Positions 34,801 through 48,870 of a DNA stretch of 64,000 nucleotides are shown piece after piece (position 1 is the first letter of the stretch; each line of letters begins with the position of its first letter). The translations under genes and the position numbers were made by a program. The notes under the pieces were generated by a model. The model searched no databases and was not told the origin of the DNA. It worked only from the letters and a program-made list of their open reading frames with translations. The stretch is from assembly GCA_964501945.1 (NCBI GenBank), contig CAZCTY010000001.1, positions 49,187-113,186 on the forward strand, written 5' to 3'. This DNA is from an uncultured Methanosarcinales archaeon (GTDB taxonomy: Archaea > Nanobdellota > Nanobdellia > Woesearchaeales > 21-14-0-10-32-9).

Positions 34801-37800
34801 TAATGTTCCCAGCTTCATCACTACAAGCAACACTCCAATTATATGAACCAGTAAAAAAACCACCAATCTCTACAGCTACCTCAGAGTTGTTTTCAACAAT
34901 TAAAGATTCAACTAATTCATCATCCAAGAAAACATCACAAGACATATTACTTGAGAATTCATCAATAACATTAAACCTAAAATCATAAGATGACGTTTCA
35001 ACAACTTGCGCATCTAAAGGATCTAAAAGAGATAAACTAGGAGGCGTCCTATCAACGACGAAACTCCAAGTATCGCTCACATTAACATTAGAAAACATAC
35101 CTGAATCCTGACACAAAACACTCCAATCATACAACCCTTCATCTAAATCAGGAACCAAGAAACTAGAAAGCTCACCACTTGAAACATTAGATGAATTACT
35201 CATCTCAAATTCATCGTTTAAATACAACTCACAAAAATCAAAACCATCATTATCAAACGCAAAATAAGACAAATTAATAACTAAATCATTTAAATGAGAC
35301 CCAATAAGAGGAGAATCTAAATTAATAGTAGGGCTTTCATTAATAGTAAAATCACGAGTCTCACTAACATTAACATTACCACCAATATCAACACACATAA
35401 CATTCCAATCATGAAAACCATCAGGCAAACCACTAACAGTTTCTGAAACAGTAACACCGCTCGTAGTGTTAGAGCTAAAAAGAGGCTCATCATTAAAATT
35501 AACAGTACAAGTTAGAGGGTCCCAATTATCAAAACCAGTATAAGAAAACAAAACACTAGAATCTGGGAAATAAGCATCATTAACAGGGCTGTGAAGCTCA
35601 ATAGTCGGTGGAGTAAAATCACCAAAGAAAACCCACGTATCACTAATACCAGTATTATCATTTGAATCTAAACACTCAACGCGCCAAGAATAAGCCTCTT
35701 CCAAGGCATTAAAAGAAAAAGAATTAACTTCATTAGGAACAACCCCTGTATCAGTTTCCTCAAGAGTATCATTTATGAAAAGAGAACATTGCTGCAAACC
35801 AAAACCATCAAACGGAACATACTCTAAAGCGACTGGGCTTGTATTGACGCCGGTAAAATTTTCAGGACTCACCAATTCAACAACAGGAGGAACATCAACA
35901 ATACTAAGATTAAAAGTATCACTAACATTAACATTGCCTGCCAAGTCTTCACACTCAATTCTCCAAGTATAATTACCAATATCAAAACCCTCAACTGTAA
36001 CATTAGACACAGTATCATTAAATGAAGTAACACTCTCAGTTAGAACATCATCAACAAAAATATTACAAGTCATCTCAGAAGACCTAGCATCACGAACAAT
36101 CCACTCAAAATTAACCCAAGACTGAGTCAGAGTATCCTCAGGGATTTGAGGGCTGAAAATGTTTAACTCGTATGGAGGAGTTCTATCAACATCAAAAAAA
36201 GAAACATTAGACTCACCAACAAGGCCACCTATATCAACACATGTAACACTCCAATTATAACTATTCTCACTTAAGCCAGAGACACTAAAAGAGTTCTGAG
36301 AATTAGCACTAGGAGACGTATCAGTGTCCTCAAGAGAACCATCAACGTATAACTCACAATAATCAAGAGTTGAAAAAGTTTGAGGAGTATACAAAAAATC
36401 AATAGGCTCATCATTCACCCAAGAATTATTCTCAGGGAAATCAAGACTAATAACAGGAGGCTCAGTAGTCGCAACAATAACTTCCTCAAAATCACTAACA
36501 GCAGAAGAATACTTTGACTCGACCAAACAACGAACATCAACAACACCAGGAGTTCCACCCTCAAGTGAAATAGTTACAGGCACAGTAGAATTAAAAACAT
36601 CACCTGCAAACTCAGGATTACTTTGCTCAGAGCCAAGAACAACAACACCTGATGTACCAACATCGCTCCAAGAACCACCACTGCGAACCTGCGCGTAAAC
36701 ATCAACATCCAAACAAGAACCTTGCTCACACGCCACATCACAAACCAAATCAAAAGAACCACCCTGACCAACACTCAAAGACTCATTAGGCTGATTCAAA
36801 AAAGCACTAAGACTACCAATTTGAGTAAAACCAAGAACATCAACAAAACTTTCAGGATGATCAACTAAATGATTAAAACTCCTCGCTTGATTAGGATGAT
36901 CATTTTCAATACGAATAACATAAAACAGAGAATCCGTACTCTCAAGCCTAATATCGCTAGGAATAGAACAAGAACCAATATTCGCACTATTATCACTACT
37001 AGCACTAGTACTCTCCTCAGAACAAATCAAAGTATTATCGCCACTATCAGACCGCTTATATAATTGCCAAGAAGGCGTTAAACGATTATCGCCTGCAGAA
37101 AAATAAGTACTAAAATCAACACTAGAACCGCCACTAATCTCTGCACCATTAGAACTCATAAAAGGACTTGTGGCCTCAACTATGGTTACTGTTTGACCAG
37201 ATGAAACAGAACCCGAAATACTATCTTCATCACCATCAGTTTCTTGCGCTAAACCAATCTCACACGGAAAAGTAGAACAATCACCTGTAGCAGTCTCAAA
37301 CCACAAACCCTCATAAATAACAGGAGGCACATCAACAGTTAAAGACCTAGTATCACTAACCGCATCATTACCTGCAACATCATAACACATAATATTCCAA
37401 TTAAAAACATTATTACTAAAAACACTGCTAATAATAACTTCCTCATCACGAGGAACATCATACAAAGTGTTAACCACGCTATCATTTACTAAAAGAGAAC
37501 AATTACTAATGGGGGAATCATCACTAACCTCAAAAGCAAAAGAAACAACACTAGAATCAGTTTCAACAAAATTATCAATAGGACTTACAAGAGAAATACT
37601 AGGAGGAGTTCTATCAATATGAATCGTCCTATTATTAATCCCCCACGCAACATCGGAGTTCTCATCTTCACATAAAACGTTCCAAGAATAAGAACCCTCA
37701 TCACTAAACGAAGCACTCAAAGAATTAACAGAACCCTCAACGACATTACTAGTAGAATTTTTAGAACTCCAACCACCCTCACTAGTATAAAGAGAACAAC

Positions 37801-39274
37801 TCTCAATTAAAGTAGATTCACTATTTGGAACAAACTCAAATAATTGATCTGGGTCTGCACGAGTAATAAAATTATTATTAGGACTTTCCAATACAACAGC
37901 AAAATCGCCAGGCTCAGTATAATTAATAGTAGTCTCAACCTCATTTAAAATCAAACTAAAATAAATAAACCTGTTCTGATTACCAGGAGCATTATAAGTA
38001 ACATCTCCTTCAAGATGAATATAATAAGTACAATAATCAGGCCAATTATCACAATTATCCTCATTAAATGATTGACTGCCGGTTTCATCAATATCACTAT
38101 TAGTCCAAGTAAGAGTTGAAGGCGTAGTAACACTTGATGAACCAACAAGGATTTCATTACCATTACCAAGAACATCATCATTATCAAAATAACCACTCTG
38201 AGAACTACTAGTTATACTAACAGGACCCGCACTATCAAAATCAGCATCAACAACATAAGTTATTTCCTCTAAGAAAAAAGAAACAGCGTTTTGAGGAACC
38301 TGAATAGTATGCTCACAGACAACACTATCACTAAGAGTGCCACCAGAACCTGTAGTGTCAATTACAAAACCACAATCAAGATCATCATCGACCTCAACAA
38401 ATAAAGGATCCTCAGGAGTTAGAGTGAAAGTGTAAACCTCGCCAGGAGTAATATCACGTTTTTTTTGCAAATCACCAAAACACTCCTGAGTAGAAAAATT
38501 ATACTCTTTACAAATATACAAAGTAGTACCCTCAGCAACCACGGAAACAGTAGCCTCATCAAAATCAACAGTCGTAGGATCAATTGCATAACTTTTAACA
38601 CTATCTCTGCCACGAATACTTATAGGATGCGTGATATCTTCAATACCAAGCCGAGGAGGAGCAGTATCACGCAAGCCCCTAAACAAAATATTTTCAACCG
38701 CGTTAATAGGACGATCCAAGGACAAACCACGACCCCTAAAAGTGCCAACCTCTTCGAACCTAACAGGCCTTTTAACATTCGCATGATTTTCAACAATTAA
38801 ACCACCAGGATTATTAATAAAAGAATCTTTTGAACCATCAACTTTTAACTCAGATAAAAAATCATCAACGTCCTCACCCTCAACAAACTCATCATCAAAC
38901 TCACGCGTATCAACAACAACCTCACTAATAACAATATCAGCAGTTTTATCAAACAATTTTATAACATACCTATCAGGCTCAATCAAATTAAACTTAACAG
39001 GAAACTCAGGAACACCAATATAATTATATACTTGAGAACTAGTCTCAACACTCAAAGACAAATAATCAAAATCATCACCTAAAAGCTCAGGCTCAGTATC
39101 AATAAAAATAACATCCTCCCCAGACACAACTTTTTCTCGAGCAATAAGATCTATATCAGAAAACTCAAAATCAGCAAACCCAGATATAGGGACAAAAAAT
39201 AAAAAAAGAGTAAGAACTAGGACGAAACTACAAAGTACTCCTAACCACCCTTTCTTCAACATCTTAAAAAACAC
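31868..39274 (-). CDS. Giant (2468 aa) secreted cell-surface protein with about 15 tandem W-x-V-x-C-x-D-x-x-G-N modules and a B/C-like C-terminal domain
   Basis: The signal peptide ends in FFVPISGFA. Modules include YSWNVLCEDENSD, FNWNIMCYDVAGN, YNWSVTCVDIGG, YTWRIECEDLAGN, YSWRVECLDSNDN, HDWNVMCVDIGGN, YDWSVLCQDSG, YNWSVACSDEAGN, YGWNVQCTDTNDM, YSWSVFCSDIAG, YNWTVACTDLDNN, HTWSVTCRDLAGN, YSWRVECIDTTV, EVFVIAEDLAGN and YVWNVTCFDFAGN. The C-terminus TGILWDHSE..FEIRVPATLREYQGPDLERVIFYTEIK matches the other giant protein and family B. Confidence 0.8.
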   Translation of the reverse strand: MFFKMLKKGWLGVLCSFVLVLTLFLFFVPISGFADFEFSDIDLIAREKVVSGEDVIFIDTEPELLGDDFDYLSLSVETSSQVYNYIGVPEFPVKFNLIEPDRYVIKLFDKTADIVISEVVVDTREFDDEFVEGEDVDDFLSELKVDGSKDSFINNPGGLIVENHANVKRPVRFEEVGTFRGRGLSLDRPINAVENILFRGLRDTAPPRLGIEDITHPISIRGRDSVKSYAIDPTTVDFDEATVSVVAEGTTLYICKEYNFSTQECFGDLQKKRDITPGEVYTFTLTPEDPLFVEVDDDLDCGFVIDTTGSGGTLSDSVVCEHTIQVPQNAVSFFLEEITYVVDADFDSAGPVSITSSSQSGYFDNDDVLGNGNEILVGSSSVTTPSTLTWTNSDIDETGSQSFNEDNCDNWPDYCTYYIHLEGDVTYNAPGNQNRFIYFSLILNEVETTINYTEPGDFAVVLESPNNNFITRADPDQLFEFVPNSESTLIESCSLYTSEGGWSSKNSTSNVVEGSVNSLSASFSDEGSYSWNVLCEDENSDVAWGINNRTIHIDRTPPSISLVSPIDNFVETDSSVVSFAFEVSDDSPISNCSLLVNDSVVNTLYDVPRDEEVIISSVFSNNVFNWNIMCYDVAGNDAVSDTRSLTVDVPPVIYEGLWFETATGDCSTFPCEIGLAQETDGDEDSISGSVSSGQTVTIVEATSPFMSSNGAEISGGSSVDFSTYFSAGDNRLTPSWQLYKRSDSGDNTLICSEESTSASSDNSANIGSCSIPSDIRLESTDSLFYVIRIENDHPNQARSFNHLVDHPESFVDVLGFTQIGSLSAFLNQPNESLSVGQGGSFDLVCDVACEQGSCLDVDVYAQVRSGGSWSDVGTSGVVVLGSEQSNPEFAGDVFNSTVPVTISLEGGTPGVVDVRCLVESKYSSAVSDFEEVIVATTEPPVISLDFPENNSWVNDEPIDFLYTPQTFSTLDYCELYVDGSLEDTDTSPSANSQNSFSVSGLSENSYNWSVTCVDIGGLVGESNVSFFDVDRTPPYELNIFSPQIPEDTLTQSWVNFEWIVRDARSSEMTCNIFVDDVLTESVTSFNDTVSNVTVEGFDIGNYTWRIECEDLAGNVNVSDTFNLSIVDVPPVVELVSPENFTGVNTSPVALEYVPFDGFGLQQCSLFINDTLEETDTGVVPNEVNSFSFNALEEAYSWRVECLDSNDNTGISDTWVFFGDFTPPTIELHSPVNDAYFPDSSVLFSYTGFDNWDPLTCTVNFNDEPLFSSNTTSGVTVSETVSGLPDGFHDWNVMCVDIGGNVNVSETRDFTINESPTINLDSPLIGSHLNDLVINLSYFAFDNDGFDFCELYLNDEFEMSNSSNVSSGELSSFLVPDLDEGLYDWSVLCQDSGMFSNVNVSDTWSFVVDRTPPSLSLLDPLDAQVVETSSYDFRFNVIDEFSSNMSCDVFLDDELVESLIVENNSEVAVEIGGFFTGSYNWSVACSDEAGNINVSDTINFEVLLPPKVTLVSPANNTGSDSQDTEFSFIPSEGSGEFPVCSLILNNDVVDTISDAPLGEVSTFLVENMDDGAYGWNVQCTDTNDMTGSADDSWIYYVDTEPPYEILMFNPLNETVEIFNNVTFSFLARDEVSPEMYCDVILTEYEPVVDTYSLTPDSLLVENNTVHNFSYLLPDGNYSWSVFCSDIAGLYNQSEEFFFEVDAPPNVTLVSPENYSWFNTDSVTLTYLPEDDFGISQCELIINDEVIESTSSVLNKNLNTFELDDLDEGEYNWTVACTDLDNNVFAPEPFSFYVDLLAPEVELHNPLQDELLDESPIVFNWTVTDLLSPVLYCDLNINGEVESENIQVLNGVPYQESVFGLSEDNHTWSVTCRDLAGNVDESETRDFSVFIPPEITLISPDDNLWTNVTNQEFVYRVFDDTGVEQCSLFINDELNQTDTSVLNDAQNSFFVNNMEGIYSWRVECIDTTVLNVLGVSNTRTLNVDLVPPSVSFVTENDTWFNDSPILEFILEDDLANVIDYEVYVNGSLEDSGSGNNGVVTSSELSGLTDGSYEVFVIAEDLAGNVNISETLIINIDTVPPVVNLNYPVNDSEVFSSDVNLSFTATDNIADPLVCDVTLNNDLVREDLSVSNGVEEIVELTGLIGGLYVWNVTCFDFAGNPGVSDTWEFFVPIPDLSVNNTEIYFNETNPREGELINVTATIRNIGEGLAEDFDVEFWANEVDVVGNQIGDTINVDSLGEGSAINVSTSFNVPIGSTEIFAVVNPDQRVVESDYDNNIASRNISVEFWHYALGTTDDSLRVTDASLGLLFDWNVDNSTGSNIYVTDFDSQISWTTLQALGKDVNDNVRMEDFVLLDNALGADEFGDSINNTYTRNGEILSGVTFEIFGQTIEDVPVVNSTTSDNFKTGILWDHSESSQYSGSENVVFITQVNKDQVGYQGGINDFEIRVPATLREYQGPDLERVIFYTEIK

Positions 39275-40329
39275 TATTTCTTTTTAAACAATTTTTTAAA
39301 AAAACCTTTTTTCTCCTCCACAGTTTTCTCCTTATCAACACTTTTGTCTTGCTCATCAGGCTTTGATGCGGAACTATCTTCCTTTGATGCAGAAGTATCA
39401 TCTTTTGAAGATACAACACTTTCACCACCTACATCTTCAACTTTCAAATTTAACTGCCTAATCGCCGAATCTAATTTTGACTTAATCTCTTTTTTTAACA
39501 AAGACATATTTTTCTTAACATCCTCATTAGTTGATTTAGAACGCTTATCCATCAAATCAATAATCTTAGTGGTGTGCTTTTCAAAATCATTAAACTTATT
39601 GATAAATTTCAAAAGCTCTTTTTTATCAGTCTTATCTTCCAACTTAACTTTCATTTTATCAAAGTCGCCCTGAATTTTTTCAAAAGAACGCTTCAAATCC
39701 TTAACAGAATCATTGAACTTATCAAACTCAGTAAACTTCTTTTCAACCTCTACATAAATAGTTTCAACTTTGTTACTATGCCTATCAATCTCACCCTCAA
39801 TTTTTTTAATTTGAATAAGCTCATCTTTAATTTCTTCATTGAGCTTAGTAACTTGTTCAATACCCTTATAAAAATCCATTTTCTTACGCATCTCTTTAAC
39901 TTCTTTCATCATATCAGACATTAAAGATTCAGAACTCTCAACGCCAGCTTTAACGCTCTCAATTTTAGAATCTTGCTTTCTAACTTCAAGCATTAATTTA
40001 TCAGGCTTCACGCTTTCAACTAAGTCAATCGCCTTAGTTGCAGACGCCTCAATGTTACCAACACTTTTGTTAGTATCCATAATCATGCCGCGAATCTCAC
40101 CAATCTCCTCACTAATACGAGAAAAACGCTCATTAGTCGCCTGACGCTGTTCGTTTAAACCCTCAAGCTGAGCCTTAATTTTAGTAACCTCAACGCCCAA
40201 CTTCGAATCGCCAAGATCATCTTCCTTTTTATTATTAGCAGCCTCTTTTTCTTCAAGCTCTTGCTGCTGCGCCTCAATATTTTTTTTAATTAATTCCTCA
40301 TCACTAACTTTTTTCTTAAACAAACCCAT
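39274..40329 (-). CDS. 351-aa cytoplasmic coiled-coil protein with K-rich termini
   Basis: Heptad-rich and E/K-rich throughout (MGLFKKKVSDEELIKKNIEAQQQELEEKE ... KKGFFKKLFKKK). No TM helix. Its stop overlaps the downstream start by 1 nt. Confidence 0.6.
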   Translation of the reverse strand: MGLFKKKVSDEELIKKNIEAQQQELEEKEAANNKKEDDLGDSKLGVEVTKIKAQLEGLNEQRQATNERFSRISEEIGEIRGMIMDTNKSVGNIEASATKAIDLVESVKPDKLMLEVRKQDSKIESVKAGVESSESLMSDMMKEVKEMRKKMDFYKGIEQVTKLNEEIKDELIQIKKIEGEIDRHSNKVETIYVEVEKKFTEFDKFNDSVKDLKRSFEKIQGDFDKMKVKLEDKTDKKELLKFINKFNDFEKHTTKIIDLMDKRSKSTNEDVKKNMSLLKKEIKSKLDSAIRQLNLKVEDVGGESVVSSKDDTSASKEDSSASKPDEQDKSVDKEKTVEEKKGFFKKLFKKK

Positions 40330-40340
40330 ACTTCATCCTC

Positions 40341-41333
40341 TCAATTTTTTAATTTATTTTTTTTAATGACATCTCCATTAACATTAGCCTTTTCCAAAAC
40401 TTCTTTTTTTATGTCAAGCTCAACAAATTGCTCAGCACTAGCAATTTCCTCCTCAACCTCGTCTAACAAGTTTTTAACTTTGTCTCTTGCCTCAAAAGAA
40501 TTATCAACTTCTAAGAAATGAATCTTAGGCTTAATCAATTTAAGCTTCATAAAAGGAATAAGCATATCAATACCTCTCCTCCTTTTCGCAGATATCAAAG
40601 AATAAAGAGATTCATACCTCTCATTAATATCAGAAACATTAGCCTTTAAAACTTCCTCGTTTAAATAAGTATTTTGCTTCATTTTCTTTGTTTTTTCTAA
40701 AAGTTGCTCACTACGCTCAGATAATGAAGCAGGAGCTGAGGTCTCAAAATCTTTTTCAGTAGAGGAGTCTTTATTCAAACTATCATTTGTTGAAGAAGGC
40801 TGTTCTATTTTTTCAGAAACATTATTAGAAGCATCACTGTCATTAGAATTTTCGACATCTTCCTTTTTAGTTTTATTTACATCAACTTCTGTTTTATTCT
40901 CTGAATTATTTTCATCAAGAGAAGCCACATCATTTGATATATTTTCATCAGATTCTTTTTTATTTCTTTTAAACAGATTCTTTAGATAATTTTTTTCTTT
41001 TTTTCTTTTATTTTCATGAGGCTTACTAATATCAGTTTTATTTTTTTTTCTAAAACTAATCTTTTTTTTCTTTTTCTTTCCATTCAAATGCTCATTAAGA
41101 ATACTTAATAAATCCTCAGGAGAACTTTTTTTCGAAAAAGAGTTAGCCAAATCTTCTTTTCCAAAAAAGCCTCTAACCCAATTCGCATAATCATTATTAG
41201 TGTCAGTAACATGTCTTTGAAAATTATGAAGATTAATTCCCTTAACATTTTTTTCTAATTCTTCTTTCAATTCGCTTAAATCTCTGAGAACTTCACCATT
41301 ACTAAAATAAAAATATTTATCTGGACTAACCAT
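40341..41333 (-). CDS. 330-aa cytoplasmic protein: N-terminal KNDF-W-like module, K/N-rich linker, C-terminal coiled coil
   Basis: The N-terminus SNGEVLRDLSELKEELEKNVKGINLHNFQRHVTDTNNDYANWVRGFFGKEDLANSF aligns with the recurring module. Its start overlaps the upstream ATPase gene by 8 nt. Confidence 0.6.
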   Translation of the reverse strand: MVSPDKYFYFSNGEVLRDLSELKEELEKNVKGINLHNFQRHVTDTNNDYANWVRGFFGKEDLANSFSKKSSPEDLLSILNEHLNGKKKKKKISFRKKNKTDISKPHENKRKKEKNYLKNLFKRNKKESDENISNDVASLDENNSENKTEVDVNKTKKEDVENSNDSDASNNVSEKIEQPSSTNDSLNKDSSTEKDFETSAPASLSERSEQLLEKTKKMKQNTYLNEEVLKANVSDINERYESLYSLISAKRRRGIDMLIPFMKLKLIKPKIHFLEVDNSFEARDKVKNLLDEVEEEIASAEQFVELDIKKEVLEKANVNGDVIKKNKLKN

Positions 41334-44300
41334 TTCTAAGCACCTCTTTTATAGCTGCCCTATCTTTCGCATGACGAATTTTCTCAGCTAATTCTTTTTC
41401 ATCAAACACGTGCTCTACCCAATTTGCAAAGTCGTTTTTCTCAGAAGTTACGTGCTTATAAAAAATATCGTCAGAAATTTTATCTAATAAATTATAAAGA
41501 TCTTTTATACTATGCAATTTTAATCCAGTCTCAAGCAAGAATGTTTTATCATCAGGCGCAATTTTTTCAAAAGCAGAGGAAACCTTAGAAGAAGTTTCAT
41601 CATCGAATTGCTCTTCTTCATCCTCTTCTTGATTCTTTTTTTCAACAGATTCATCAGATGAAGCAGCAGATTCTTTTTTAATAACGTCTTCGCTATCACT
41701 GCTTTCTTTTTTTACAGGATCTTCTTTTTCATTGCTTTCATTTTTTTCGTTTTCTTGTTCTTTGTTTTCTGCTTCAGCGTTTCCTTGTGTTTCTTTTTCA
41801 GCGCTTTCTTGTTTGTTTTCGTCGGTTGCTTCTTGTTTGTTTTCTTGTGTTTCTTTTTCGGTGTTTTCTGGTTCGTTTTCGTCGGTTTCTTTTTCTTGTT
41901 TGTCGTCATTATCGTCTTTTTTGTTTTTTGTTTCAGCACTTTCTTGTGTTTCTTTTTCTTTTTCAGTGTTTTCTGGTTCGTTTTCGTCGGTTTCTTCTTT
42001 TTTGTCTTCAGACTCTTTTTTTTCTAAAGGAGGCAGTTTTTCACCCTTGCCACGCTTATCAAGCAAATCAAGAATTTCTTTTCTATCCTTAGTATTAGCT
42101 AAATGCTCGCCTAATTCAATGTCGCCGACAGCGTTTTTAAACCAATCAGCGAAATCATTCTTTTTATCATTAACATGAAATTCAAAATCAGAGTCTTTCA
42201 TGGCTTCAATTTCAGAATACAAACTACTAGGAGTTACAACTAACATGTCATTGTTAAGCTTTAAGATTTTATCAGGAGGAACATCTTTTTTAAATTTCTC
42301 AGAAGGACTCTCTTCTTTAGAATCTCCACCACTTTCTTCTTTTTTATTTTCTTTATCAAACTTATCACGCTCACTTTGCGCCTTTTTCAAATCTTTTTCC
42401 AACTCTTCTTTAGAAACCATTTTAGGCTTTAGAATCTTAGGTTCTTTACCAATCTTATCCCACAATTTCTTTAACCTAGGTTCAAGACCCTCAATGTAAA
42501 TTTTAACCATGTTAAAATTACCAGCCTTGACTTTATCAAGTGCTAATTTAAGCTCTAACTTTAAATCAAAAACATCCTGACCTTCCTCTTCTAATTGTTC
42601 CATTTCATAAGTCATCTGATCAATTTTTTTGTTATACTCATTATACTGAGAAATTTCATCATCACTCAAACGAGCAACAGAGTGCAAGATAGGCCTGAAA
42701 GTAGTAAAATAAGGCCGACCTCTATTGTAAGCAGAGTTTTGAACCATACCAGTACCAATACTTGCCTTAACTAAGCTTTGAAGAACATCCGCGCCATACT
42801 TAGTTTTAATACGATCAAGATCTCCCTCGTCCCTAGTTCTCATCTGAATTTCTGTGTTAATGTTAGCTTTAATTTGACCAACGAAATCCGCGAGTACCTG
42901 AGATATAAGCATAACACCAATACCCCACTTCCTAAACTCACGACAAGCACGCTCAATTTGCAAGAAACCCTCACCACTACCACCAAACTTAGGCAACAAC
43001 CTGTGAACCTCATCGTAAACCAAACAAAGCCTTAAAGGCTCAGACTCATCAAAATTAGCATGAAACACCTCTCGCACAGTGTTTGCTACGAAGATATCAA
43101 TATCTTTAGGATCAAGCTTGTGAACCGCAAATACCTGAATCTCACCCGGCTTCATATATTTACGAATATCAATTAACTCACGAGCATTATCAATTTGACG
43201 AATGTTACCAACAAAAGGACGCGCATCTTTAGGCTTCATACCAAAACTCGGATACAAACCCATCAAACCTTTATTTGTAAGCTTACGAAGCATACCAGTC
43301 CATTGAGCAGTAGGATCAAAAACAATAACAGCAACATCCTTCATTAACATTTCTTCAATAATAACTTGAGCGGAAAAACTCTTACCACCACCAGTACTAC
43401 CAGCTACGATTGTGTGAGTTTTAAAATTTTCAAGATTCATATAAGACTTCTTTTCAGTCTCAGCAATCTTACCAACAAAAGCACTACGAGGCCCAGGCTT
43501 AGGCAACTCAGAATATTCAACTTTTAAATGATACTTCTTTTTAGCCTCCATCCTTTTCTTAAAAACTATTATTCCAATAATAATACCAAAGAGCAACAAA
43601 CTTCCAAGAATAGCATGCCAAACCCGCACACCCCAAAACAAAGTATATTGGTGAAATGGCAAACTAACAGTGAAAACATGACTCGAACTAGAACTCAAAT
43701 CTAAATAATTCGCAGTTACACGAATAACATACTCACCAGGAGGTAAATTATTAGGCAACTCAACGTTTCTAAGCAAAGAAACAGTAGTCTTCAAGAAAAC
43801 ATTCGCAGACTGAGTCCAAATAGTTTCCTCACCAGAAATATCTTGAATGCTAAAGAGAACATTAACAGGATACTCCCTATCAGATAACATATTAGTAAGA
43901 TCAGTTCTAAACGTGAACCTAGAACCAGAATAAATAGTTCTATCAGACATACTAATACCAATAAGAAGAGCCTGAATAGGAATTTTATCTTTATCAAGAA
44001 TTTCAATCTCAACAGGAATATTCGCATCAATATCCCCAGTTATATTAATAGTACCATTATAAATACCAGGAGTTTGATTACCAAAGAAAGTTAAAGTAAC
44101 GCGACCATCACCCCTTGCACCAATAGAAATACTGTCCCTATCAATATTAGTAATATTTTTAAAATCACCAACTAAGTCAAAATTAACCTGCATGGTGCCA
44201 TCTCTAAAACTTTGAATAACAACAGTTTCTTGAGCAAACTCTCCCTCACGAATACGCTTAGTTATACGATTAAAAGGAATCCAAAATTCCTGCCCCTCAA

Positions 44301-45459
44301 TTTCAGCAGGACGCTCAATTTGAAAAGGAACCTCACCAGGACCAACATCTTCCCCAAAATCAGGGCCTATATCAGGATGCATATCAACAAAATCAACAGG
44401 AGGCGCATCTATCTCAAGCATTATATTATGCTCAGTTTCTTCATTTAATGTAACGTTTATATCACTCTCATAAGTAGAGTAACCTTCCAAAATAGCAATT
44501 ATCTTTGACGGGCCCGCCCTAGTAGTCAAGTTATAAAAACCTTGACCATCAGTTACAGTAGAATAACCTGCAACAGTTATCAAAACATCTTCCAAAGGAT
44601 TACCAGATAAATCAGTCACAGAACCATAAACAATACCTTGCTCCTCAGGCTCATCATCCCCTCCGACACAGACATTGAAAGGATCAATAAAAACATGATA
44701 CGTAGTGGTTGAATTGTCTATAATAGGTAACAAGAATTGATAATTATAAAAACGATTATTAAAACCTCTCGAAAGAGCCTCATTTAACTCAGCGACATAA
44801 ACATAATTATCGTTTTCATCTTTTAAAATACCAGTATTAAACATACCCTCAGGTGTATCGGTGCCAACATTAGTTTTAACAGCAGGAATATTACTAATCG
44901 TTCGCTCCCCAAGAGTTATACTCATAGTTTCAGTAAAAGTCTTAGTAGCAGAATCATAATAAGACGCATCAATACCGATGAGCGCATCAATTTCTTCAGG
45001 TGATGCAGGAGTTAGAGAGTTAATAGACACCTCGGCTTCAGGAACATAACTTGCAAATAACAAATTAACCTTATCAGGCTCAACACAATCAAAAAACATA
45101 TTCGCCTCATTAGTGCTACCTTGCTCAATATCAAACATCCACGGCTGTTCTTGACCCACACCGAAAGCAGCACCATACAAACCAGCCCAATTAAAAGCAG
45201 GCTTTTTATACAATAACTCCATTTGATAAATAGTCCCGCCAATACCTTCATGATACGCAACATAACCAGTATAAATAGTAGTAGACGCGAGCAAAATAAT
45301 ACTCAAAACAAATAAAGAAATTAATAATATGTCGCTAAAAGATTTACGCTTATTCTTTTTAGGAACTGAACGATTATTAATAGCATCATCAATACTAATA
45401 TCTTTTTCCTCAAACAATTTATTTACAAAATTCCTCAAATTCCACTTCTTCTTACTCAT
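41326..45459 (-). CDS. 1377-aa membrane-anchored FtsK/HerA/VirB4-superfamily (DUF87-like) P-loop ATPase with large extracellular domain and two C-terminal KNDF-W modules
   Basis: An N-terminal TM (ILLISLFVLSIILLASTTIY) is followed by an ectodomain of about 560 aa containing a carboxypeptidase-regulatory-like beta domain (GIVYGSVTDLSGNPLEDVLITVAGYSTVTDGQGFYNL). A second TM (WHAILGSLLLFGIIIGIIVF) is followed by the ATPase core: Walker A THTIVAGSTGGGKSF, IVFDPTAQW and Walker B CLVYDEVHRLLP. Then come a coiled coil, a KNDF-W module (KNDFADWFKNAVGD), an acidic low-complexity stretch of about 170 aa and a second module (KNDFANWVEHVFDEKELAEKI). Confidence 0.8.
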   Translation of the reverse strand: MSKKKWNLRNFVNKLFEEKDISIDDAINNRSVPKKNKRKSFSDILLISLFVLSIILLASTTIYTGYVAYHEGIGGTIYQMELLYKKPAFNWAGLYGAAFGVGQEQPWMFDIEQGSTNEANMFFDCVEPDKVNLLFASYVPEAEVSINSLTPASPEEIDALIGIDASYYDSATKTFTETMSITLGERTISNIPAVKTNVGTDTPEGMFNTGILKDENDNYVYVAELNEALSRGFNNRFYNYQFLLPIIDNSTTTYHVFIDPFNVCVGGDDEPEEQGIVYGSVTDLSGNPLEDVLITVAGYSTVTDGQGFYNLTTRAGPSKIIAILEGYSTYESDINVTLNEETEHNIMLEIDAPPVDFVDMHPDIGPDFGEDVGPGEVPFQIERPAEIEGQEFWIPFNRITKRIREGEFAQETVVIQSFRDGTMQVNFDLVGDFKNITNIDRDSISIGARGDGRVTLTFFGNQTPGIYNGTINITGDIDANIPVEIEILDKDKIPIQALLIGISMSDRTIYSGSRFTFRTDLTNMLSDREYPVNVLFSIQDISGEETIWTQSANVFLKTTVSLLRNVELPNNLPPGEYVIRVTANYLDLSSSSSHVFTVSLPFHQYTLFWGVRVWHAILGSLLLFGIIIGIIVFKKRMEAKKKYHLKVEYSELPKPGPRSAFVGKIAETEKKSYMNLENFKTHTIVAGSTGGGKSFSAQVIIEEMLMKDVAVIVFDPTAQWTGMLRKLTNKGLMGLYPSFGMKPKDARPFVGNIRQIDNARELIDIRKYMKPGEIQVFAVHKLDPKDIDIFVANTVREVFHANFDESEPLRLCLVYDEVHRLLPKFGGSGEGFLQIERACREFRKWGIGVMLISQVLADFVGQIKANINTEIQMRTRDEGDLDRIKTKYGADVLQSLVKASIGTGMVQNSAYNRGRPYFTTFRPILHSVARLSDDEISQYNEYNKKIDQMTYEMEQLEEEGQDVFDLKLELKLALDKVKAGNFNMVKIYIEGLEPRLKKLWDKIGKEPKILKPKMVSKEELEKDLKKAQSERDKFDKENKKEESGGDSKEESPSEKFKKDVPPDKILKLNNDMLVVTPSSLYSEIEAMKDSDFEFHVNDKKNDFADWFKNAVGDIELGEHLANTKDRKEILDLLDKRGKGEKLPPLEKKESEDKKEETDENEPENTEKEKETQESAETKNKKDDNDDKQEKETDENEPENTEKETQENKQEATDENKQESAEKETQGNAEAENKEQENEKNESNEKEDPVKKESSDSEDVIKKESAASSDESVEKKNQEEDEEEQFDDETSSKVSSAFEKIAPDDKTFLLETGLKLHSIKDLYNLLDKISDDIFYKHVTSEKNDFANWVEHVFDEKELAEKIRHAKDRAAIKEVLRNG
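41740..42000. repeat. Intragenic imperfect tandem duplication (unit roughly 100 bp) in the acidic low-complexity region of the ATPase gene
   Basis: ggtgttttctggttcgttttcgtcggtttct at about 41861 recurs as agtgttttctggttcgttttcgtcggtttct at about 41961. The protein reads KETDENEPENTEKE...KETDENEPENTEKE. Confidence 0.5.
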
Positions 45460-48443
45460 TTTAATTTCTTCAACTCATCACCAAGCAATAAAACTTGATC
45501 CTTGAAACTTTTTTGAATATCAACATCAGCCTTATTGAAAACATCAGATAAAAGATTGTAAGTTTTAATAGCATCATCTACACTGCCTTCTTTTTGAGAG
45601 GCATGCACGCGATTAATTAAATATTCAATGTACTTTTCATTTAATAAATTCACAAGTAAAGAAATATCGTCATATACCTGATTTTTAATTTTTCCAGGAG
45701 CATTTTCATACAACATTTTAATTTCTTTGTATATAAGATTCGCACGCTCTAAATTCTGAATTTCCAAATAATCTTTAGCATCATTTATGAGAACCTTCAA
45801 CTCTTTCATCTTACGATCACTTCTAAAATTATTAACAAAACCAAACAACTTATCTTTAACATTAAAGGCATAAAACAAATAAGCCAAAACCAATATTATC
45901 AACAATAAAAACAAACCAGTGGTATGATCAACATCTCCAGCTCTTGAAGTTACCATGCCTGTAAAACTAGGAATATTGCTTCTAGAACTACTAGAAGAGA
46001 ATGCGTCCCCACCCAAAAGCAAAGTATGGGCTTTTTTAACATCATCTAAAGAAGAATGACCAACAGAGTAATAAGTTATAAAATCTGGCTTTTCTAAAAC
46101 CAATAATTCATTTCTTATAAGAGAGTCATGACTTTGCAACACAGTCAAATCAGAACGTAAATTCTCAGGCACACTTTCCAATAAAAATTGATCCCTTTTA
46201 GTCTCGCCAGTATACTCAACAGTTTTATGAACTAAAGTAATATCTTTAGTAGACCCATCCAAATAAGTAATAGTTAAATGAGCAGTGAAAGTACGAGTTC
46301 TAAAAAGATTTTGAAGCCTTTCAACTTCCCTCATGTTAACGCCGCCTTGAAGATTCCTATTTTCAAAATAAGCACTAGCAATCTCTTCCAATTCATCAGA
46401 GTCAGGATACGCAATGAACTCCTCAGATTTTTCAAGCTCAATTAATAAAGGCGTTTCTTTTTCTAATTCACGAATCAAATCTTTATATTCCTCAATTCTC
46501 TCCTCTTTTTGAACATCACTTAAATCTCGTCTCAAAGCCAAACTATTAATATCTCTTAAAATACGCTCATAATCCCTTAAACTAACTCTGAGCGTTTCCT
46601 CAACATTTAAAGCATCAGCAGCCCTTCTCGCCTCAAGCTCTAAATCATTAAAATTATCATTAGCGTTCTCAATTTTTCTCCTCAACTCACCAGCATCAAT
46701 TATATCAGATATATCATCCGCGGTAGTTGCTGAAAAACTTTCTTGAGACGCTGAAACACTCAAATCACGTACCTCAGAATCCTCATCACCACAACTAATC
46801 TGCCAACTATACTCCCCGTCATCAAGCTTTTCAACAAAAGATAGAGAGCCTTCCTTAACATCTTCTTTTTTAGCAAGATCTGCAAACCAAGAACTACCTT
46901 TTTCAGCAATTAAAAGACTACAAGTTTTTTCTTCTTCTAAAGATAAAATAGCTTCAAAACTCACTTCCTCGCGGGAGATAGATGCGCCAGCCTCAGGTGA
47001 CTGCAAAAATATAGGTGAGGTGCTATCGCTCGTGCTACTTGGGGAGGACTCAATTTTATCTAACCTAATTGTCACAGATAAATCTTCATCTAATTCAATG
47101 TCTTGATTTCTACTTGAATGACCCTCACCGCCAACTCTTAAACGATAATCATCTTCACGAAGCCTGAAAGTTACACGGCCATTACTATCAGTAAAATCAG
47201 ATTTTCTCAAATCAACAATTTGAACATCAGCATCTTCCATTACATTATTTTCATGATCTCTAACTTCAACAACCAAATCATAATACCTATCAACATCAAT
47301 TTCAAAATCTTTAACTTTCCTATTACCGCGAGAATCAACAACGATTAAAGAAACTTCGTGGGATCCAGCACTGGAGAAAGACAAATCAACCTCATCATCA
47401 GATTCAGTTTCGCCATCAAACTCCCAAGTATATTCATAAGGAGAAATACCTCCTGAAGCACTAGCTTTCAAAGTTATTTCTTCATCAACTTCCAAATCTT
47501 TTTTTCCACTCAAAGAAATATCAATAGTGTTCGTTACTTTGTATGAAACATTATGAGTAACACCAGATTCTTTTAAAATAAAATCAAGCCTATAATCTCC
47601 TGCGACGAATGCTTTTTCAAAATCAATTTTTTGCCACAACTTACCATCTTTATTGATGTTCAAATTATCAATTGTGAACTCTTCAGATTTTTCTAAGGTT
47701 TCAAAGTTAGGATTTTTCTCAGAACGCAACCAAACCTTTAATTCAAATTCTAAACCTTCCTCGCCATGAACTAAAAGATAACCTTCCTCGCCAAGAGAGA
47801 AATTTTTATCACTCAACTCAACATAAAAAGGCTCAACCACATCAACCTTTCTAATAACTTGCATAGGAGTATAATTTTCATTTTCATTGAACCTAGCGGT
47901 GATTTCATAAGTTTTGAAATCTTCAAATTTTTCACTTGACGATAATTTTGAAGCATTAGCTTTGCTCAAAACAACCTCGCCATCAATTAATAATTCTAAT
48001 TCGCCTTTAACATCAGAATCTATAGATATGTTTACAGTTTCATTTCTAAAAACAGTCAAATCTTCTGTTTTACCATTTAAAGATAAATTAAGTTTCGGCG
48101 TGGCTTTTTCAATTTCATAATTACCGGAAATATTAGTTGTGTTAGTTTCATTTCCTTTTTCCCACAAGTAATTATATTCTCCAGCGCTTAAATCATCTAT
48201 ATTTACCAAATAAGAATTTCTTTCTTTGTCATAATCAACTTTTTCCCTTGATAAAATTACTAATTTATCTTTAGATAGCTTAAACCAAACAGTATCGTTT
48301 AACTCTTCTAAATCAAGCATAAAATCATAAGATTTATCAGGCTCATAAACAGGAGATTCAGGATGGACATTACTAATAGCTGAAATAGTTGGAACTAATA
48401 GCAATATCATTAAAGTTGCCAGATAAAATATTTTGTTTTTCAT
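45456..48443 (-). CDS. 995-aa type I membrane protein with PKD-like and carboxypeptidase-regulatory-like extracellular domains, a TM helix and a cytoplasmic tail of about 130 aa
   Basis: The signal peptide ends in LLLVPTISAIS. A PKD-like segment is GGISPYEYTWEFDGETESDDEVDLSFSSAGSHEVSLIVVDSRGN. A CarboxypepD_reg-like segment is YDLVVEVRDHENNVMEDADVQIVDLRKSDFTDSNGRVTF. The TM is TGLFLLLIILVLAYLFYAF. Four-nucleotide overlaps occur at both ends. Confidence 0.75.
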   Translation of the reverse strand: MKNKIFYLATLMILLLVPTISAISNVHPESPVYEPDKSYDFMLDLEELNDTVWFKLSKDKLVILSREKVDYDKERNSYLVNIDDLSAGEYNYLWEKGNETNTTNISGNYEIEKATPKLNLSLNGKTEDLTVFRNETVNISIDSDVKGELELLIDGEVVLSKANASKLSSSEKFEDFKTYEITARFNENENYTPMQVIRKVDVVEPFYVELSDKNFSLGEEGYLLVHGEEGLEFELKVWLRSEKNPNFETLEKSEEFTIDNLNINKDGKLWQKIDFEKAFVAGDYRLDFILKESGVTHNVSYKVTNTIDISLSGKKDLEVDEEITLKASASGGISPYEYTWEFDGETESDDEVDLSFSSAGSHEVSLIVVDSRGNRKVKDFEIDVDRYYDLVVEVRDHENNVMEDADVQIVDLRKSDFTDSNGRVTFRLREDDYRLRVGGEGHSSRNQDIELDEDLSVTIRLDKIESSPSSTSDSTSPIFLQSPEAGASISREEVSFEAILSLEEEKTCSLLIAEKGSSWFADLAKKEDVKEGSLSFVEKLDDGEYSWQISCGDEDSEVRDLSVSASQESFSATTADDISDIIDAGELRRKIENANDNFNDLELEARRAADALNVEETLRVSLRDYERILRDINSLALRRDLSDVQKEERIEEYKDLIRELEKETPLLIELEKSEEFIAYPDSDELEEIASAYFENRNLQGGVNMREVERLQNLFRTRTFTAHLTITYLDGSTKDITLVHKTVEYTGETKRDQFLLESVPENLRSDLTVLQSHDSLIRNELLVLEKPDFITYYSVGHSSLDDVKKAHTLLLGGDAFSSSSSRSNIPSFTGMVTSRAGDVDHTTGLFLLLIILVLAYLFYAFNVKDKLFGFVNNFRSDRKMKELKVLINDAKDYLEIQNLERANLIYKEIKMLYENAPGKIKNQVYDDISLLVNLLNEKYIEYLINRVHASQKEGSVDDAIKTYNLLSDVFNKADVDIQKSFKDQVLLLGDELKKLK

Positions 48444-48709
48444 TTTTTAAGCTCCATTATTATGTTTTGAAGTTCTTCAAGCAATTTTTCTTTGTCTTTA
48501 GTTTCTTTTGTGTTTGAAATTTTCTGTTCTAATTGCTCTCTCATTTTTTGCACTTCGTATTTGTAGGGGGATTGATGCTGCTCACATTTTTTTCTTATGA
48601 TTGTTCTTATTTGCTCAGATAAATCTAAGTAATGATTTTCTTGGGCGAGCTCTTTTAATTCTTGAACTAACGTATTCGGGAGACGTATGCTCACAACTGT
48701 ATCTTTCAT
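48440..48709 (-). CDS. Ribbon-helix-helix transcriptional regulator (89 aa) with coiled-coil tail
   Basis: MKDTVVSIRLPNTLVQELKELAQENHYLDLSEQIRTIIRK is an RHH fold pattern. There are ATGA overlaps with the upstream RHH ORF and with the downstream 995-aa gene. Confidence 0.55.
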   Translation of the reverse strand: MKDTVVSIRLPNTLVQELKELAQENHYLDLSEQIRTIIRKKCEQHQSPYKYEVQKMREQLEQKISNTKETKDKEKLLEELQNIIMELKK

Positions 48710-48870
48710 ATCTCGCCCCCTCTTCGTTTAAGTTTTTGTTCTTGAACGTATTCGCGTAAGAATTCTCTGATTGCCTCAGATCTAGAACTGAATGTTTTTT
48801 CTTCAAGCAGAGGCTCGAGCCTTTTGAGAAGTTCTTTTGGCACCCTCACGTTTATTACTTCGGTTTTCAT
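48706..48870 (-). CDS. Ribbon-helix-helix transcriptional regulator (54 aa; below the ORF-track cutoff), first gene of the long minus-strand gene string
   Basis: Translated by hand from the minus strand: MKTEVINVRVPKELLKRLEPLLEEKTFSSRSEAIREFLREYVQEQKLKRRGGEI. This is a classic CopG-like RHH. Its TGA overlaps the ATG of the next RHH gene. Confidence 0.5.
   Translation of the reverse strand: MKTEVINVRVPKELLKRLEPLLEEKTFSSRSEAIREFLREYVQEQKLKRRGGEI

What the first reader, a model, noticed from the sequence alone, without database searches (positions are those of the whole stretch)
41326..45459. P-loop ATPase of the HerA/VirB4 (DUF87) type with an unusual architecture: TM, 560-aa extracellular domain, TM, ATPase, then acidic tail with two KNDF-W modules
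Walker A AGSTGGGKS, the IVFDP segment and Walker B LVYDEVHRL fit the FtsK/HerA/VirB4 clade. These ATPases are normally peripheral or carry only short membrane anchors. Here the core is fused to a large ectodomain with a CarboxypepD_reg-like beta domain and to a long disordered acidic tail. That suggests energy coupling across the membrane to the surface proteins encoded downstream.
Basis: partly seen in the sequence, partly recalled or inferred. Interest (0 to 1): 0.8.

Follow-up and report, generated by a model that had tools for sequence, protein, structure and literature searches.

The report
Membrane-anchored SPEARE-type ATPase in Woesearchaeota
This gene encodes a membrane-anchored motor ATPase with an outward-facing domain, a short relative of the giant "SPEARE" surface proteins of tiny symbiotic (DPANN) archaea; it sits in a conserved operon with huge adhesin genes, but what it does is still unproven.

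Summary
A 1377-aa ORF lies on the minus strand at 41326-45459. It has two TM helices bracketing a 546-aa beta-sandwich ectodomain, then a HerA/VirB4-clade P-loop core, a helical bundle, and an acidic tail with two ~80-aa KNDF-W (DUF5752-type) modules. It is not a frameshift artefact, because more than 60 species-level genomes keep the same layout.

The architecture is not unprecedented. Residues 532-996 align at 41% identity (E 2e-115) with the C-terminus of the Nanohaloarchaeum antarcticus SPEARE protein. A profile search finds 452 representatives (E<=1e-30). The 150 best-scoring ones range from about 450 to 6253 aa, always with the ATPase about 50 aa after a TM helix.

This is the short, "split" Woesearchaeota form. 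It is the fourth gene of a tight 11-gene operon: two RHH proteins, a PKD membrane protein, the ATPase, a module protein, a coiled-coil protein and five secreted Ig-repeat proteins, three of them giant.

I read it as the ring-ATPase base of a DPANN cell-contact apparatus. Neither the cargo nor the kind of work it performs has been shown.

Verdict: new variant of a known kind, moderate interest.

The parts
41326..45459 (-). SPEARE-family membrane-anchored HerA/VirB4-clade ATPase, 1377 aa (the finding)
45334..45459 (-). N-terminal cytoplasmic K/R-rich segment, residues 1-42
   Evidence: 12 K+R in 42 residues
45262..45333 (-). TM1 / signal-anchor, residues 43-66
   Evidence: Kyte-Doolittle peak of 2.65. 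AF2 predicts a long helix. The conserved Y.GYV.YHEG motif follows directly.
43624..45261 (-). Ectodomain, residues 67-612. Four beta domains: D1 ~90-260, D2 CarboxypepD_reg 274-348, disordered linker 354-383, D3 Ig-like 399-488, D4 Ig-like 498-599.
   Evidence: AF2 model with pLDDT 81. Pfam. Foldseek finds only generic Ig/FnIII/MG tandems. D4 aligns with the membrane-proximal domain of SPEARE.
43555..43623 (-). TM2, residues 613-635
   Evidence: A TM ends 49-61 aa before Walker A in the family representatives where a preceding hydrophobic segment was detected (5th-95th percentile).
42670..43542 (-). ATPase core, residues 640-930
43378..43404 (-). Walker A, AGSTGGGKS (686-694)
   Evidence: The glycines and the lysine of GxxGxGK are invariant in 80 sequences.
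42997..43023 (-). Walker B, LVYDEVHRL (813-821)
42922..42942 (-). REFRKWG motif (840-846), the equivalent of HerA EGRKYG (arginine finger)
   Evidence: Alignment to HerA chains 9c1m and 8xau. R-E-x-R-K-W-G is invariant.
42460..42669 (-). C-terminal three-helix bundle, residues 931-1000. It is conserved across the family and forms the C-terminal end of N. antarcticus SPEARE.
42049..42294 (-). KNDF-W module copy 1, residues ~1056-1137
   Evidence: Sandbox HMM, i-E 6.7e-30. Weak DUF5752 hit.
41575..42039 (-). Acidic low-complexity linker, residues 1141-1295
   Evidence: 60 D+E in 155 residues. No homologues found by BLAST.
41332..41568 (-). KNDF-W module copy 2, residues ~1298-1376
   Evidence: Sandbox HMM, i-E 3.8e-27. 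Pfam DUF5752, 35.7 bits.
48706..48882 (-). Operon gene 1: 58-aa ribbon-helix-helix protein (TTG start)
   Evidence: Homologue present in 39 of 84 related loci.
48440..48709 (-). Operon gene 2: 89-aa protein with an RHH-like N-terminus
   Evidence: Homologue present in 62 of 84 loci.
45456..48443 (-). Operon gene 3: 995-aa single-pass membrane protein with a signal peptide, PKD + CarboxypepD_reg ectodomain, a TM at 835-864 and a helical cytoplasmic tail. Its stop overlaps the ATPase start by 4 nt.
   Evidence: A homologue lies directly upstream in 71 of 84 loci.
40341..41333 (-). Operon gene 5: 330-aa soluble protein with an N-terminal KNDF-W module (residues 1-83), a disordered middle and a helical C-terminus
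   Evidence: Module-bearing small ORFs lie downstream of the ATPase in many loci.
39274..40329 (-). Operon gene 6: 351-aa coiled-coil protein with basic amphipathic ends (MGLFKKK... and ...GFFKKLFKKK). It is the most constant partner of the ATPase.
   Evidence: Present in 54 of 84 loci at 39-75% identity. Also follows a 6253-aa fused family member, at 33% identity, E 5e-42.
31868..39274 (-). Operon gene 7: 2468-aa secreted Ig-repeat protein (Big_13, Big_7, CARDB), with a Sec-type signal peptide and no C-terminal TM
26155..31866 (-). Operon gene 8: 1903-aa secreted Ig-repeat protein
24384..26171 (-). Operon gene 9: 595-aa protein with a signal peptide, a He_PIG Ig domain and a C-terminal TM
22642..24387 (-). 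Operon gene 10: 581-aa secreted protein
15191..22600 (-). Operon gene 11: 2469-aa secreted Ig-repeat protein, a paralogue of gene 7

Best explanation
The ORF encodes a short-ectodomain member of the SPEARE family of DPANN archaea. It is a HerA/VirB4-clade ring ATPase held directly under the cytoplasmic membrane by a TM helix about 50 residues upstream of its Walker A motif. Its N-terminal part is displayed outside the cell as four beta-sandwich domains.

Shown: the identity, the topology, intact catalytic motifs, membership of a family of more than 450 representatives in which ectodomain length varies from about 0 to about 5,500 aa, and a conserved 11-gene operon.

Inferred: the protein assembles into a ring, a hexamer by homology with HerA, VirB4 and FtsK. 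Together with the translationally coupled upstream single-pass PKD protein and the downstream coiled-coil protein, it forms the membrane base of a cell-surface contact apparatus. The distal part of that apparatus is made of the Sec-exported Ig-repeat giants, which in other lineages are fused to the ATPase itself. ATP hydrolysis in the ring moves a polymer at the contact site. I favour nucleic acid as the cargo, because most of the nearest structural neighbours handle DNA. An effector protein is the alternative. The two KNDF-W modules on the flexible acidic tail act as docking sites that gather the other module-bearing cytoplasmic and membrane proteins encoded nearby.
For: Identity and family:
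- 41% identity over 478 aa with the N. antarcticus SPEARE C-terminus (sequence from Hamm 2019 SI).
- Pfam DUF87 is above threshold.
- Walker A, Walker B and the Arg-finger motif are invariant or nearly so in 80 sequences.

Family breadth:
- At least 585 matched stretches in species-representative genomes encode a relative.
- 452 representatives score E<=1e-30. The best 150 are 452-6253 aa long, always with the ATPase at the C-terminal end of the protein.

Operon:
- Genes overlap by 1-17 nt or are 1-41 nt apart.
- Homologues of the PKD protein, the RHH proteins, the coiled-coil protein and the giants flank the ATPase in 71, 62, 54 and about 26 of 84 loci.

Fusion evidence:
- A 6253-aa fused member keeps the coiled-coil partner but has no separate giants.
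- The unfused giants here share long Ig-repeat similarity with fused ectodomains, for example 23% over 1228 aa, E 2e-20.

Tail modules:
- There are 6 copies in 5 proteins of this window.
- In the related loci, 54-66 ORFs other than the ATPase carry the module. Many are small proteins just downstream of the ATPase.
- Tail modules occur only in short and medium family members (22 of 140) and in none of the 34 members longer than 3000 aa.
Against: No experiment bears on the function of any family member; both published proposals are inferences. No polytopic channel protein, pilin or other T4SS component was found in the window, so the route through the membrane is unexplained. Ring assembly, the pore and the cargo were not tested here. 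Short family members (366-631 aa) sit alone among housekeeping genes, so the core job of the ATPase need not involve adhesins. The similarity between the giants and fused ectodomains may reflect only shared Ig repeats.
Confidence: 0.55

Rival explanations
1. The ATPase is the dedicated export or assembly motor for the giant surface proteins encoded downstream. This is the first reader's reading: the ATPase energises their passage or mounting on the surface, as EssC/EccC or T1SS ATPases do for their substrates.
Against: All five downstream surface proteins have ordinary N-terminal Sec-type signal peptides. In fused SPEARE-type forms the ectodomain lies N-terminal to the TM, and Reva et al. 2023 describe an apparent Sec signal peptide on the 9,409-aa nanohaloarchaeal giant. 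Short family members have no adhesin neighbours.
Confidence: 0.15
2. The ATPase does mechanical or organisational work only. The ring ATPase and the coiled-coil protein form a cytoplasmic scaffold that clusters, tensions or remodels surface adhesins, or signals from inside to outside, without translocating any polymer.
For: No channel component is present in the operon. The coiled-coil partner with amphipathic basic ends is constant. The same docking-type module sits on the cytoplasmic tails of several other membrane proteins.
Against: Characterised members of the FtsK-HerA clade are, to my knowledge, polymer translocases or secretion energisers. All close structural neighbours are of that kind.
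Confidence: 0.15
3. It is an anti-phage or restriction-type HerA. This covers the original SPEARE reading, in which the intracellular domain is a type III restriction enzyme that degrades incoming DNA.
Against: No nuclease, Sir2, DUF4297 or other effector domain is found in the protein or its neighbours. The NCBIfam anti-phage HerA model scores 19.5 against a cut-off of 800. The family is very widespread in Woesearchaeota, and the long forms keep a fixed surface-protein context, which is unlike patchy defence islands. Reva et al. 2023 also found no endonuclease domain.
Confidence: 0.04
4. It is an annotation artefact: a frameshift or assembly error joined an extracellular-protein gene to an ATPase gene.
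For: One related MAG (L053) carries the gene as two adjacent ORFs of 587 and 729 aa.
Against: Over 60 independent genomes encode one continuous ORF with the same order of domains. The exact protein occurs on two independent assemblies. TM2 lies at a fixed 49-61 aa from Walker A in the family representatives where it was detected (5th-95th percentile).
Confidence: 0.01

Closest known systems
SPEARE proteins of Nanohaloarchaeota (Hamm et al. 2019, PMC6642349; re-annotated by Reva et al. 2023, PMC10266531)
   Same: The membrane-proximal Ig-like domain, the TM helix, the ATPase core and the terminal helical bundle are homologous (41% identity over 478 aa). The topology is the same, with the ectodomain outside and the ATPase inside. 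An ortholog of this ORF is already in the SPEARE tree of Hamm 2019.
   Different: The ectodomain is 546 aa here against about 3,000-9,000 aa, with different distal domains (D1 plus CarboxypepD_reg). No laminin-G domain was detected. The giant Ig-repeat proteins are separate genes in the same operon. There is an extra ~380-aa C-terminal tail with two DUF5752-type modules, which N. antarcticus SPEARE lacks and which is absent from all 34 family members over 3000 aa. The PKD, RHH and coiled-coil operon has not been described.
HerA (archaeal HerA-NurA DNA end-resection translocase, PDB 4d2i)
   Different: There is no HAS-barrel N-terminal domain; a TM helix takes its place. There are no NurA, Mre11 or Rad50 neighbours. 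NCBIfam HerA models score 16-19.5 against a cut-off of 800. Sequence identity is 18%.
VirB4 and type IV coupling proteins (VirD4/TrwB/TraD) of type IV secretion and conjugation
   Different: The outside loop is a 546-aa multidomain ectodomain instead of a few tens of residues. There is no CagE_TrbE_VirB N-domain. The TraD models score 18-25 bits against cut-offs of 366-648. No VirB6-, VirB2- or relaxase-like genes are in the window.
Ced DNA-import system ATPase of Crenarchaeota (NCBIfam NF053655 'DNA-translocating ATPase CedD')
   Same: It is the best NCBIfam hit, and it is a membrane-associated HerA/VirB4-like ATPase of an archaeal cell-contact DNA-transfer system.
   Different: The score is only 28 bits against a cut-off of 600, confined to the P-loop region. 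No CedA-like polytopic protein or pilins are nearby.
FtsK/SpoIIIE and T7SS EssC/EccC
   Different: Pfam FtsK_SpoIIIE is below threshold (17 bits against 24). There is a single ATPase domain, no gamma or FHA domains, and the membrane and ectodomain parts are different.

Membership tests
Pfam DUF87 / FtsK-HerA superfamily of P-loop ATPases | Profile score above the curated gathering threshold | tested here: met
   DUF87 scores 41.9 bits against 23.2, E 1.6e-10.
Pfam DUF87 / FtsK-HerA superfamily of P-loop ATPases | Walker A, Walker B, arginine-finger motif and the HerA-type fold | tested here: met
SPEARE proteins (DPANN) | Homologous conserved intracellular region, which is the region used to define the family tree in Hamm 2019 | tested here: met
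   41% identity over 478 aa, E 2e-115, against the N. antarcticus SPEARE C-terminus. The ortholog AYK26_03765 is listed in their Table S3; the link rests on locus-tag order.
SPEARE proteins (DPANN) | A TM helix just upstream of the intracellular region, with an extracytoplasmic portion carrying adhesion-type domains | tested here: met
   TM2 at 613-635 and a four-domain beta-sandwich ectodomain.
SPEARE proteins (DPANN) | Very large size (thousands of aa), a laminin-G domain and many adhesion domains in the same polypeptide | tested here: not met
   The protein is 1377 aa in total. Pfam finds only CarboxypepD_reg in the ectodomain. The giant Ig-repeat proteins are separate genes.
HerA proper (HerA-NurA helicase) | N-terminal HAS-barrel domain and a score above the equivalog model | tested here: not met
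   TM2 ends about 50 aa before Walker A, and the model shows only two short strands there. NF040937 scores 16 bits and NF042943 19.5 bits, against a cut-off of 800.
HerA proper (HerA-NurA helicase) | Genomic association with NurA, Mre11 and Rad50 | tested here: not met
   The neighbours are RHH, PKD, coiled-coil and Ig-repeat proteins.
VirB4 / type IV secretion system | VirB4 N-terminal domain (CagE_TrbE_VirB) and co-encoded T4SS parts (VirB6-like channel, pilin, coupling protein) | tested here: not met
Type IV coupling proteins (VirD4/TraD/TrwB) | Two N-terminal TM helices followed by a cytoplasmic NBD | tested here: met
   Topology from hydropathy and charge distribution.
Type IV coupling proteins (VirD4/TraD/TrwB) | Sequence membership (TraD/TrwB models) and an all-alpha domain | tested here: not met
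   TIGR03743 scores 25 bits against 366, and TIGR03754 18.5 against 648. The all-alpha domain was not examined residue by residue.
FtsK/SpoIIIE | Pfam FtsK_SpoIIIE above threshold | tested here: not met
Anti-phage HerA systems (HerA-Sir2, HerA-DUF4297, MADS) | A partner effector gene and a model score typical of members | tested here: not met
   Only generic hits: mad8 54.8 bits and HerA models up to 44 bits, with no partner hits for the neighbours.
Pfam DUF5752 (tail module) | Profile score above the gathering threshold | tested here: met
   35.7 bits against 23 for residues 1305-1363. The 208-position Pfam model is matched by the ~80-aa module at two separate places, positions ~50-80 and ~125-188, so the model looks like a tandem of the module.
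Ring (hexameric) translocase with a central pore | Oligomeric ring, pore-lining loops, substrate-stimulated ATPase activity | not testable with these tools
   Only a monomer model could be made. No multimer prediction or biochemistry was available.

The most novel reading that the evidence does not exclude
The ATPase, its constant coiled-coil partner, the PKD membrane protein and the KNDF-W module proteins form a previously undescribed, DPANN-specific trans-envelope machine. It would be a new class of archaeal contact-dependent translocon, unrelated in its other parts to T4SS, T7SS or Ced. It would move nucleic acid or proteins between the symbiont and its host through or along the giant adhesins. 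The fused SPEARE giants and the split Woesearchaeota operon would be two versions of the same device.
Probability: 0.3. Interest if true: 0.85.

Novelty: new variant of a known kind. Interest (0 to 1): 0.5.

Why it matters
How DPANN archaea attach to their hosts and extract material from them is an open question, and almost none of them can be cultivated. This locus shows that the SPEARE ATPase module is not peculiar to nanohaloarchaea. It is the hallmark of a large family, with 452 representatives at 50% identity scoring E<=1e-30, and at least 585 matched stretches in species-representative genomes.

In Woesearchaeota the module sits in a compact, conserved operon with defined partners. The split form supplies separate, tractable pieces for biochemistry and structure work: a 360-aa ATPase core that models at pLDDT 94.6, a 351-aa coiled-coil partner, and an 80-aa docking module. 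The 6,000-9,000-aa fused proteins do not offer that.

The finding also corrects the impression that the architecture is unprecedented. It helps explain why the domain was first taken for a restriction enzyme: the DEVH Walker B resembles a DExH-box motif, and ResIII/DEAD are among the precomputed Pfam hits listed for many homologues.

Tried and rejected
1. ESCRT-III/PspA-like identity for the 351-aa coiled-coil protein, suggested by its MGLFKKK N-terminus. A profile search of the PDB and Pfam scans of 25 homologues gave only generic coiled-coil noise. Rejected as unsupported.

2. Domain exchange between the ATPase ectodomain and the longer PKD proteins that accompany the ~780-aa ATPase forms. 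Ectodomain domains D1-D4 are essentially confined to ATPase genes. The only other matches are the upstream half of the split gene in L053, one 191-aa ORF in L076 (D3, E 2e-8) and one marginal match to a PKD protein.

3. Defence-system reading. PADLOC gave only generic HerA and mad8 similarity, with no partners.

4. Phage origin. PHROGs gave only a weak terminase or packaging-ATPase P-loop hit.

5. NCBIfam gave no family assignment, only P-loop-level hits far below the cut-offs.

6. Specific fold for the ectodomain. Foldseek against the PDB returned only tandem Ig/FnIII/macroglobulin matches with TM-scores of 0.13-0.16 relative to the query.

7. Literature searches for DUF5752, for DUF87 with DPANN or Woesearchaeota, and for HerA with DPANN found nothing describing the Woesearchaeota operon.

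8. Taxon names for the giant fused representatives were not available.

9. No tRNA genes are in the window.
Full report
**Observation.**
The window carries a 1377-codon ORF on the minus strand at 41326-45459.
- Motifs: Walker A AGSTGGGKS at 686-694, IVFDP at 712-716, Walker B LVYDEVHRL at 813-821.
- Two strongly hydrophobic helices lie at 43-66 and 613-635. They are flanked on the cytoplasmic side by K/R-rich stretches, so residues 67-612 (546 aa, not 560) face outward and the ATPase faces inward.
- Pfam puts DUF87 (HerA central domain), CarboxypepD_reg and DUF5752 above their curated thresholds, and FtsK_SpoIIIE below its threshold.
- The tail has 60 acidic residues in 155. KNDFADW and KNDFANW lie at 1100 and 1341.

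**Not an artefact.**
Thirty-nine full-length homologues of 1077-1459 aa share 41-100% identity. They are labelled Woesearchaeota, Nanoarchaeota or Pacearchaeota where a name exists. In most of the best 80 loci, a single ORF has TM1, an ectodomain of about 550 aa, TM2 and the ATPase. One MAG (L053) carries the gene split into two ORFs, which shows what a real frameshift looks like. The identical protein is on two independent assemblies.

**ATPase core.**
- Residues 640-1000 have 377 homologues in the 5.8-billion-protein search.
- An AlphaFold model built on 80 of them has a mean pLDDT of 94.6.
- A sequence search of the PDB also puts HerA chains first. It aligns REFRKWG with HerA's EGRKYG and LISQV with the QRP sensor region.
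- The Walker A glycines and lysine, the His after Walker B, and R-E-x-R-K-W-G are invariant across 80 sequences. The Walker B D-E pair is at least 90% conserved.
- It is not HerA proper. There is no HAS barrel, no NurA neighbour, and the equivalog models score 16-19.5 bits against 800.
- It is not a canonical VirB4, T4CP, FtsK or CedD either.

**Ectodomain.**
The model (pLDDT 81) shows four beta domains separated by a 30-residue disordered linker: a conserved N-terminal domain with a nearly invariant Cys pair (C125/C264), the CarboxypepD_reg domain, and two Ig-like domains. Foldseek finds only generic tandem Ig/FnIII/macroglobulin matches. I assign it no specific activity.

**What family it belongs to.**
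- The literature search led to the SPEARE proteins of Nanohaloarchaeota.
- Hamm et al. 2019 describe proteins of up to 8,553 aa. Most of each protein is outside the cell, a TM lies near the C-terminus, and the intracellular region is conserved. They called that region a type III restriction enzyme and noted similar sequences in Woesearchaeota, Aenigmarchaeota, Micrarchaeota and Altiarchaeales.
- Reva et al. 2023 re-annotated the region as a VirB4/TraG-like ATPase followed by a coiled coil, and proposed a T4SS-like role.
- The supplement of Hamm et al. prints the N. antarcticus sequence. Its last 476 residues align with residues 532-996 of this ORF at 41% identity, E 2e-115. The alignment covers the membrane-proximal Ig domain, the TM, the ATPase and the terminal helices.
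- Their Table S3 lists AYK26_03765 of 'Euryarchaeota archaeon SM23-78'. The coiled-coil homologue in my locus L033, from the same MAG, is AYK26_03775. By gene order, the 1323-aa ATPase of L033 (53% identical to this ORF over 1069 aa) is therefore the protein in their tree. This last step is an inference from locus-tag spacing.

**Family-wide view.**
- A profile search of 1.84 billion representatives gives 452 proteins at E<=1e-30. The 150 best-scoring ones range from 452 to 6253 aa, always with the ATPase at the C-terminal end of the protein.
- Among 140 new representatives, 34 exceed 3000 aa, 32 are 1500-3000 aa, 40 are 1000-1500 aa and 31 are 700-1000 aa. A TM ends 49-61 aa before Walker A in the representatives where one was detected (5th-95th percentile).
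- Shorter members (366-631 aa) have one or two TM helices, with or without an Ig domain of about 130 aa. They stand alone among housekeeping genes.

**Operon.**
The gene is fourth in an 11-gene, 33.7-kb minus-strand block (48882 to 15191). The genes overlap by 1-17 nt or lie 1-41 nt apart. In order they are:
- two small RHH proteins;
- a 995-aa single-pass PKD/CarboxypepD_reg membrane protein;
- the ATPase;
- a 330-aa protein with an N-terminal KNDF-W module;
- a 351-aa coiled-coil protein with basic amphipathic ends;
- five secreted proteins of 2468, 1903, 595, 581 and 2469 aa, with Ig-like domains (Big_13, Big_7, CARDB, He_PIG) in four of them and none detected in the 581-aa protein, and with Sec-type signal peptides.

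In 84 related loci, a PKD-protein homologue lies directly upstream in 71, the 89-aa protein occurs in 62, the coiled-coil protein in 54, and giants follow wherever the contig continues. A 6253-aa fused member keeps the coiled-coil partner (33% identity, E 5e-42) but has no separate giants or PKD protein. The unfused giants here share long repeat-level similarity with fused ectodomains. I read this as a split-versus-fused pair, which supports a functional link between the ATPase and the adhesins. It does not show what that link is.

**Tail module.**
The KNDF-W element is a domain of about 80 aa. The 208-position Pfam DUF5752 model is matched by it at two separate places, so the model looks like a tandem of the module. 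An HMM built from 176 copies finds six copies in five proteins of this window:
- two in the ATPase tail;
- one at the N-terminus of the 330-aa protein;
- one at the C-terminus of a 307-aa protein (13164-14087);
- one at the cytoplasmic C-terminus of a 909-aa single-pass membrane protein (7715-10444);
- one at the N-terminus of a 322-aa membrane protein (14211-15179).

In related loci, 54-66 ORFs other than the ATPase carry it. Many of these are small proteins just downstream of the ATPase. Among family representatives the tail module occurs only in short and medium forms (22 of 140) and never in those over 3000 aa. No structure or function is known for it. My inference is that it is a cytoplasmic docking domain.

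**Mechanism.**
*Shown:* an intact HerA/VirB4-type catalytic core tethered about 50 residues below the membrane, an outward multidomain stalk, conserved partners, and a fusion relationship with giant adhesins.

*Inferred:* ring assembly, and ATP-driven movement of a polymer at a host-contact site. I favour nucleic acid as cargo, because the closest structural neighbours (HerA, DptH, TrwB, FtsK, TcpA, the STIV2 packaging ATPase) handle DNA, and because DPANN are generally thought to depend on scavenged nucleotides (my own knowledge). Protein effectors remain possible, as Reva et al. propose.

*Weak points:* no channel-forming protein is found, there is no test of oligomerisation, and short family members stand alone.

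The rival readings are:
- Export motor for the giants. This is weakened by their Sec signal peptides.
- A purely mechanical scaffold.
- Defence or restriction. There is no nuclease or effector, and the context is fixed.
- Artefact. Excluded.

**Novelty and score.**
The kind is known, but its function has not been tested by experiment. The Woesearchaeota subfamily has been noticed but not analysed. New here are the split architecture, the defined operon, the constant coiled-coil partner and the DUF5752-type docking module. I rate it a new variant of a known kind, with interest 0.5.

Noticed in passing
window 7715-10444 (+), module at 10205-10438: A 909-aa single-pass membrane protein (signal peptide, ectodomain, one TM) ends in a cytoplasmic KNDF-W module (KNDFYKW). 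It matches the module HMM at E 1.5e-27. The module is therefore not confined to the ATPase operon.
   Followed up: partly
window 13164-14087 (-), module at 13170-13409: A 307-aa soluble, largely disordered protein carries a C-terminal KNDF-W module (E 3.5e-27). It lies just beyond the last giant gene.
   Followed up: partly
window 14211-15179 (+), module at 14232-14468: A 322-aa protein has a degenerate N-terminal module (E 3.9e-15) and one TM. Its C-terminus contains 'TKGDNTRQPD', which recalls S26/Sec11-type signal peptidases. Pfam gave no hit, so the peptidase idea is untested.
   Followed up: no
window 48706-48882 (-): A 58-aa CopG-type RHH ORF with a TTG start is missed at the usual ORF length cut-offs. 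It overlaps the next gene by 4 nt and is conserved at the head of the operon in 39 of 84 related loci.
   Followed up: yes
window 49133-49843 (+): A divergently transcribed 236-aa protein has an N-terminal hydrophobic segment, a second TM and a C-terminal winged-helix domain (DUF7343/MarR). It may be a membrane-bound regulator facing the operon promoter region, which has the lowest GC in the window (0.29).
   Followed up: no
window 31868-39274 (-) and 15191-22600 (-): Two giants of almost identical length (2468 and 2469 aa) share a CARDB domain at the same position and the same C-terminal ending (...FE(I/V)RVPATLR.Y.G......F/I-Y..I). Neither has a membrane anchor, so how they stay on the cell is unexplained.
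   Followed up: no
window 10-40 kb versus 40-48 kb: AT skew on the + strand is strongly positive (0.2-0.5) across most of the giant-adhesin genes, but near zero or negative across the ATPase and PKD genes, although all are on the same strand. This probably reflects amino-acid composition.
   Followed up: no
L053 6165-10139: In one MAG the ATPase gene is split into a 587-aa ectodomain ORF and a 729-aa ATPase ORF. It is probably a frameshift or assembly error and is the only such case in the 80-locus genome scan.
   Followed up: partly
L060, L064, L075; L061 with L066: Some Woesearchaeota genomes carry two family members, a ~780-840-aa form and a 1290-1620-aa form. They are sometimes in the same locus, so the paralogues probably have distinct roles.
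   Followed up: no
L008, L010, L012, L027-L029 and other loci; P0065, P0086, P0127: Many contigs with this typical Woesearchaeota operon are titled 'uncultured Methanosarcinales archaeon', 'Candidatus Saccharibacteria bacterium', Nitrospirae, Leptospiraceae or Patescibacteria. These are most likely mis-binned or mislabelled records rather than real occurrences.
   Followed up: no
L004 11250-12752; P0036, P0038, P0095: TPR repeats recur with the family. They appear as a 500-aa TPR protein right after a 402-aa short form, and fused into the C-terminal tail of some 1300-aa forms in place of the KNDF-W modules.
   Followed up: no
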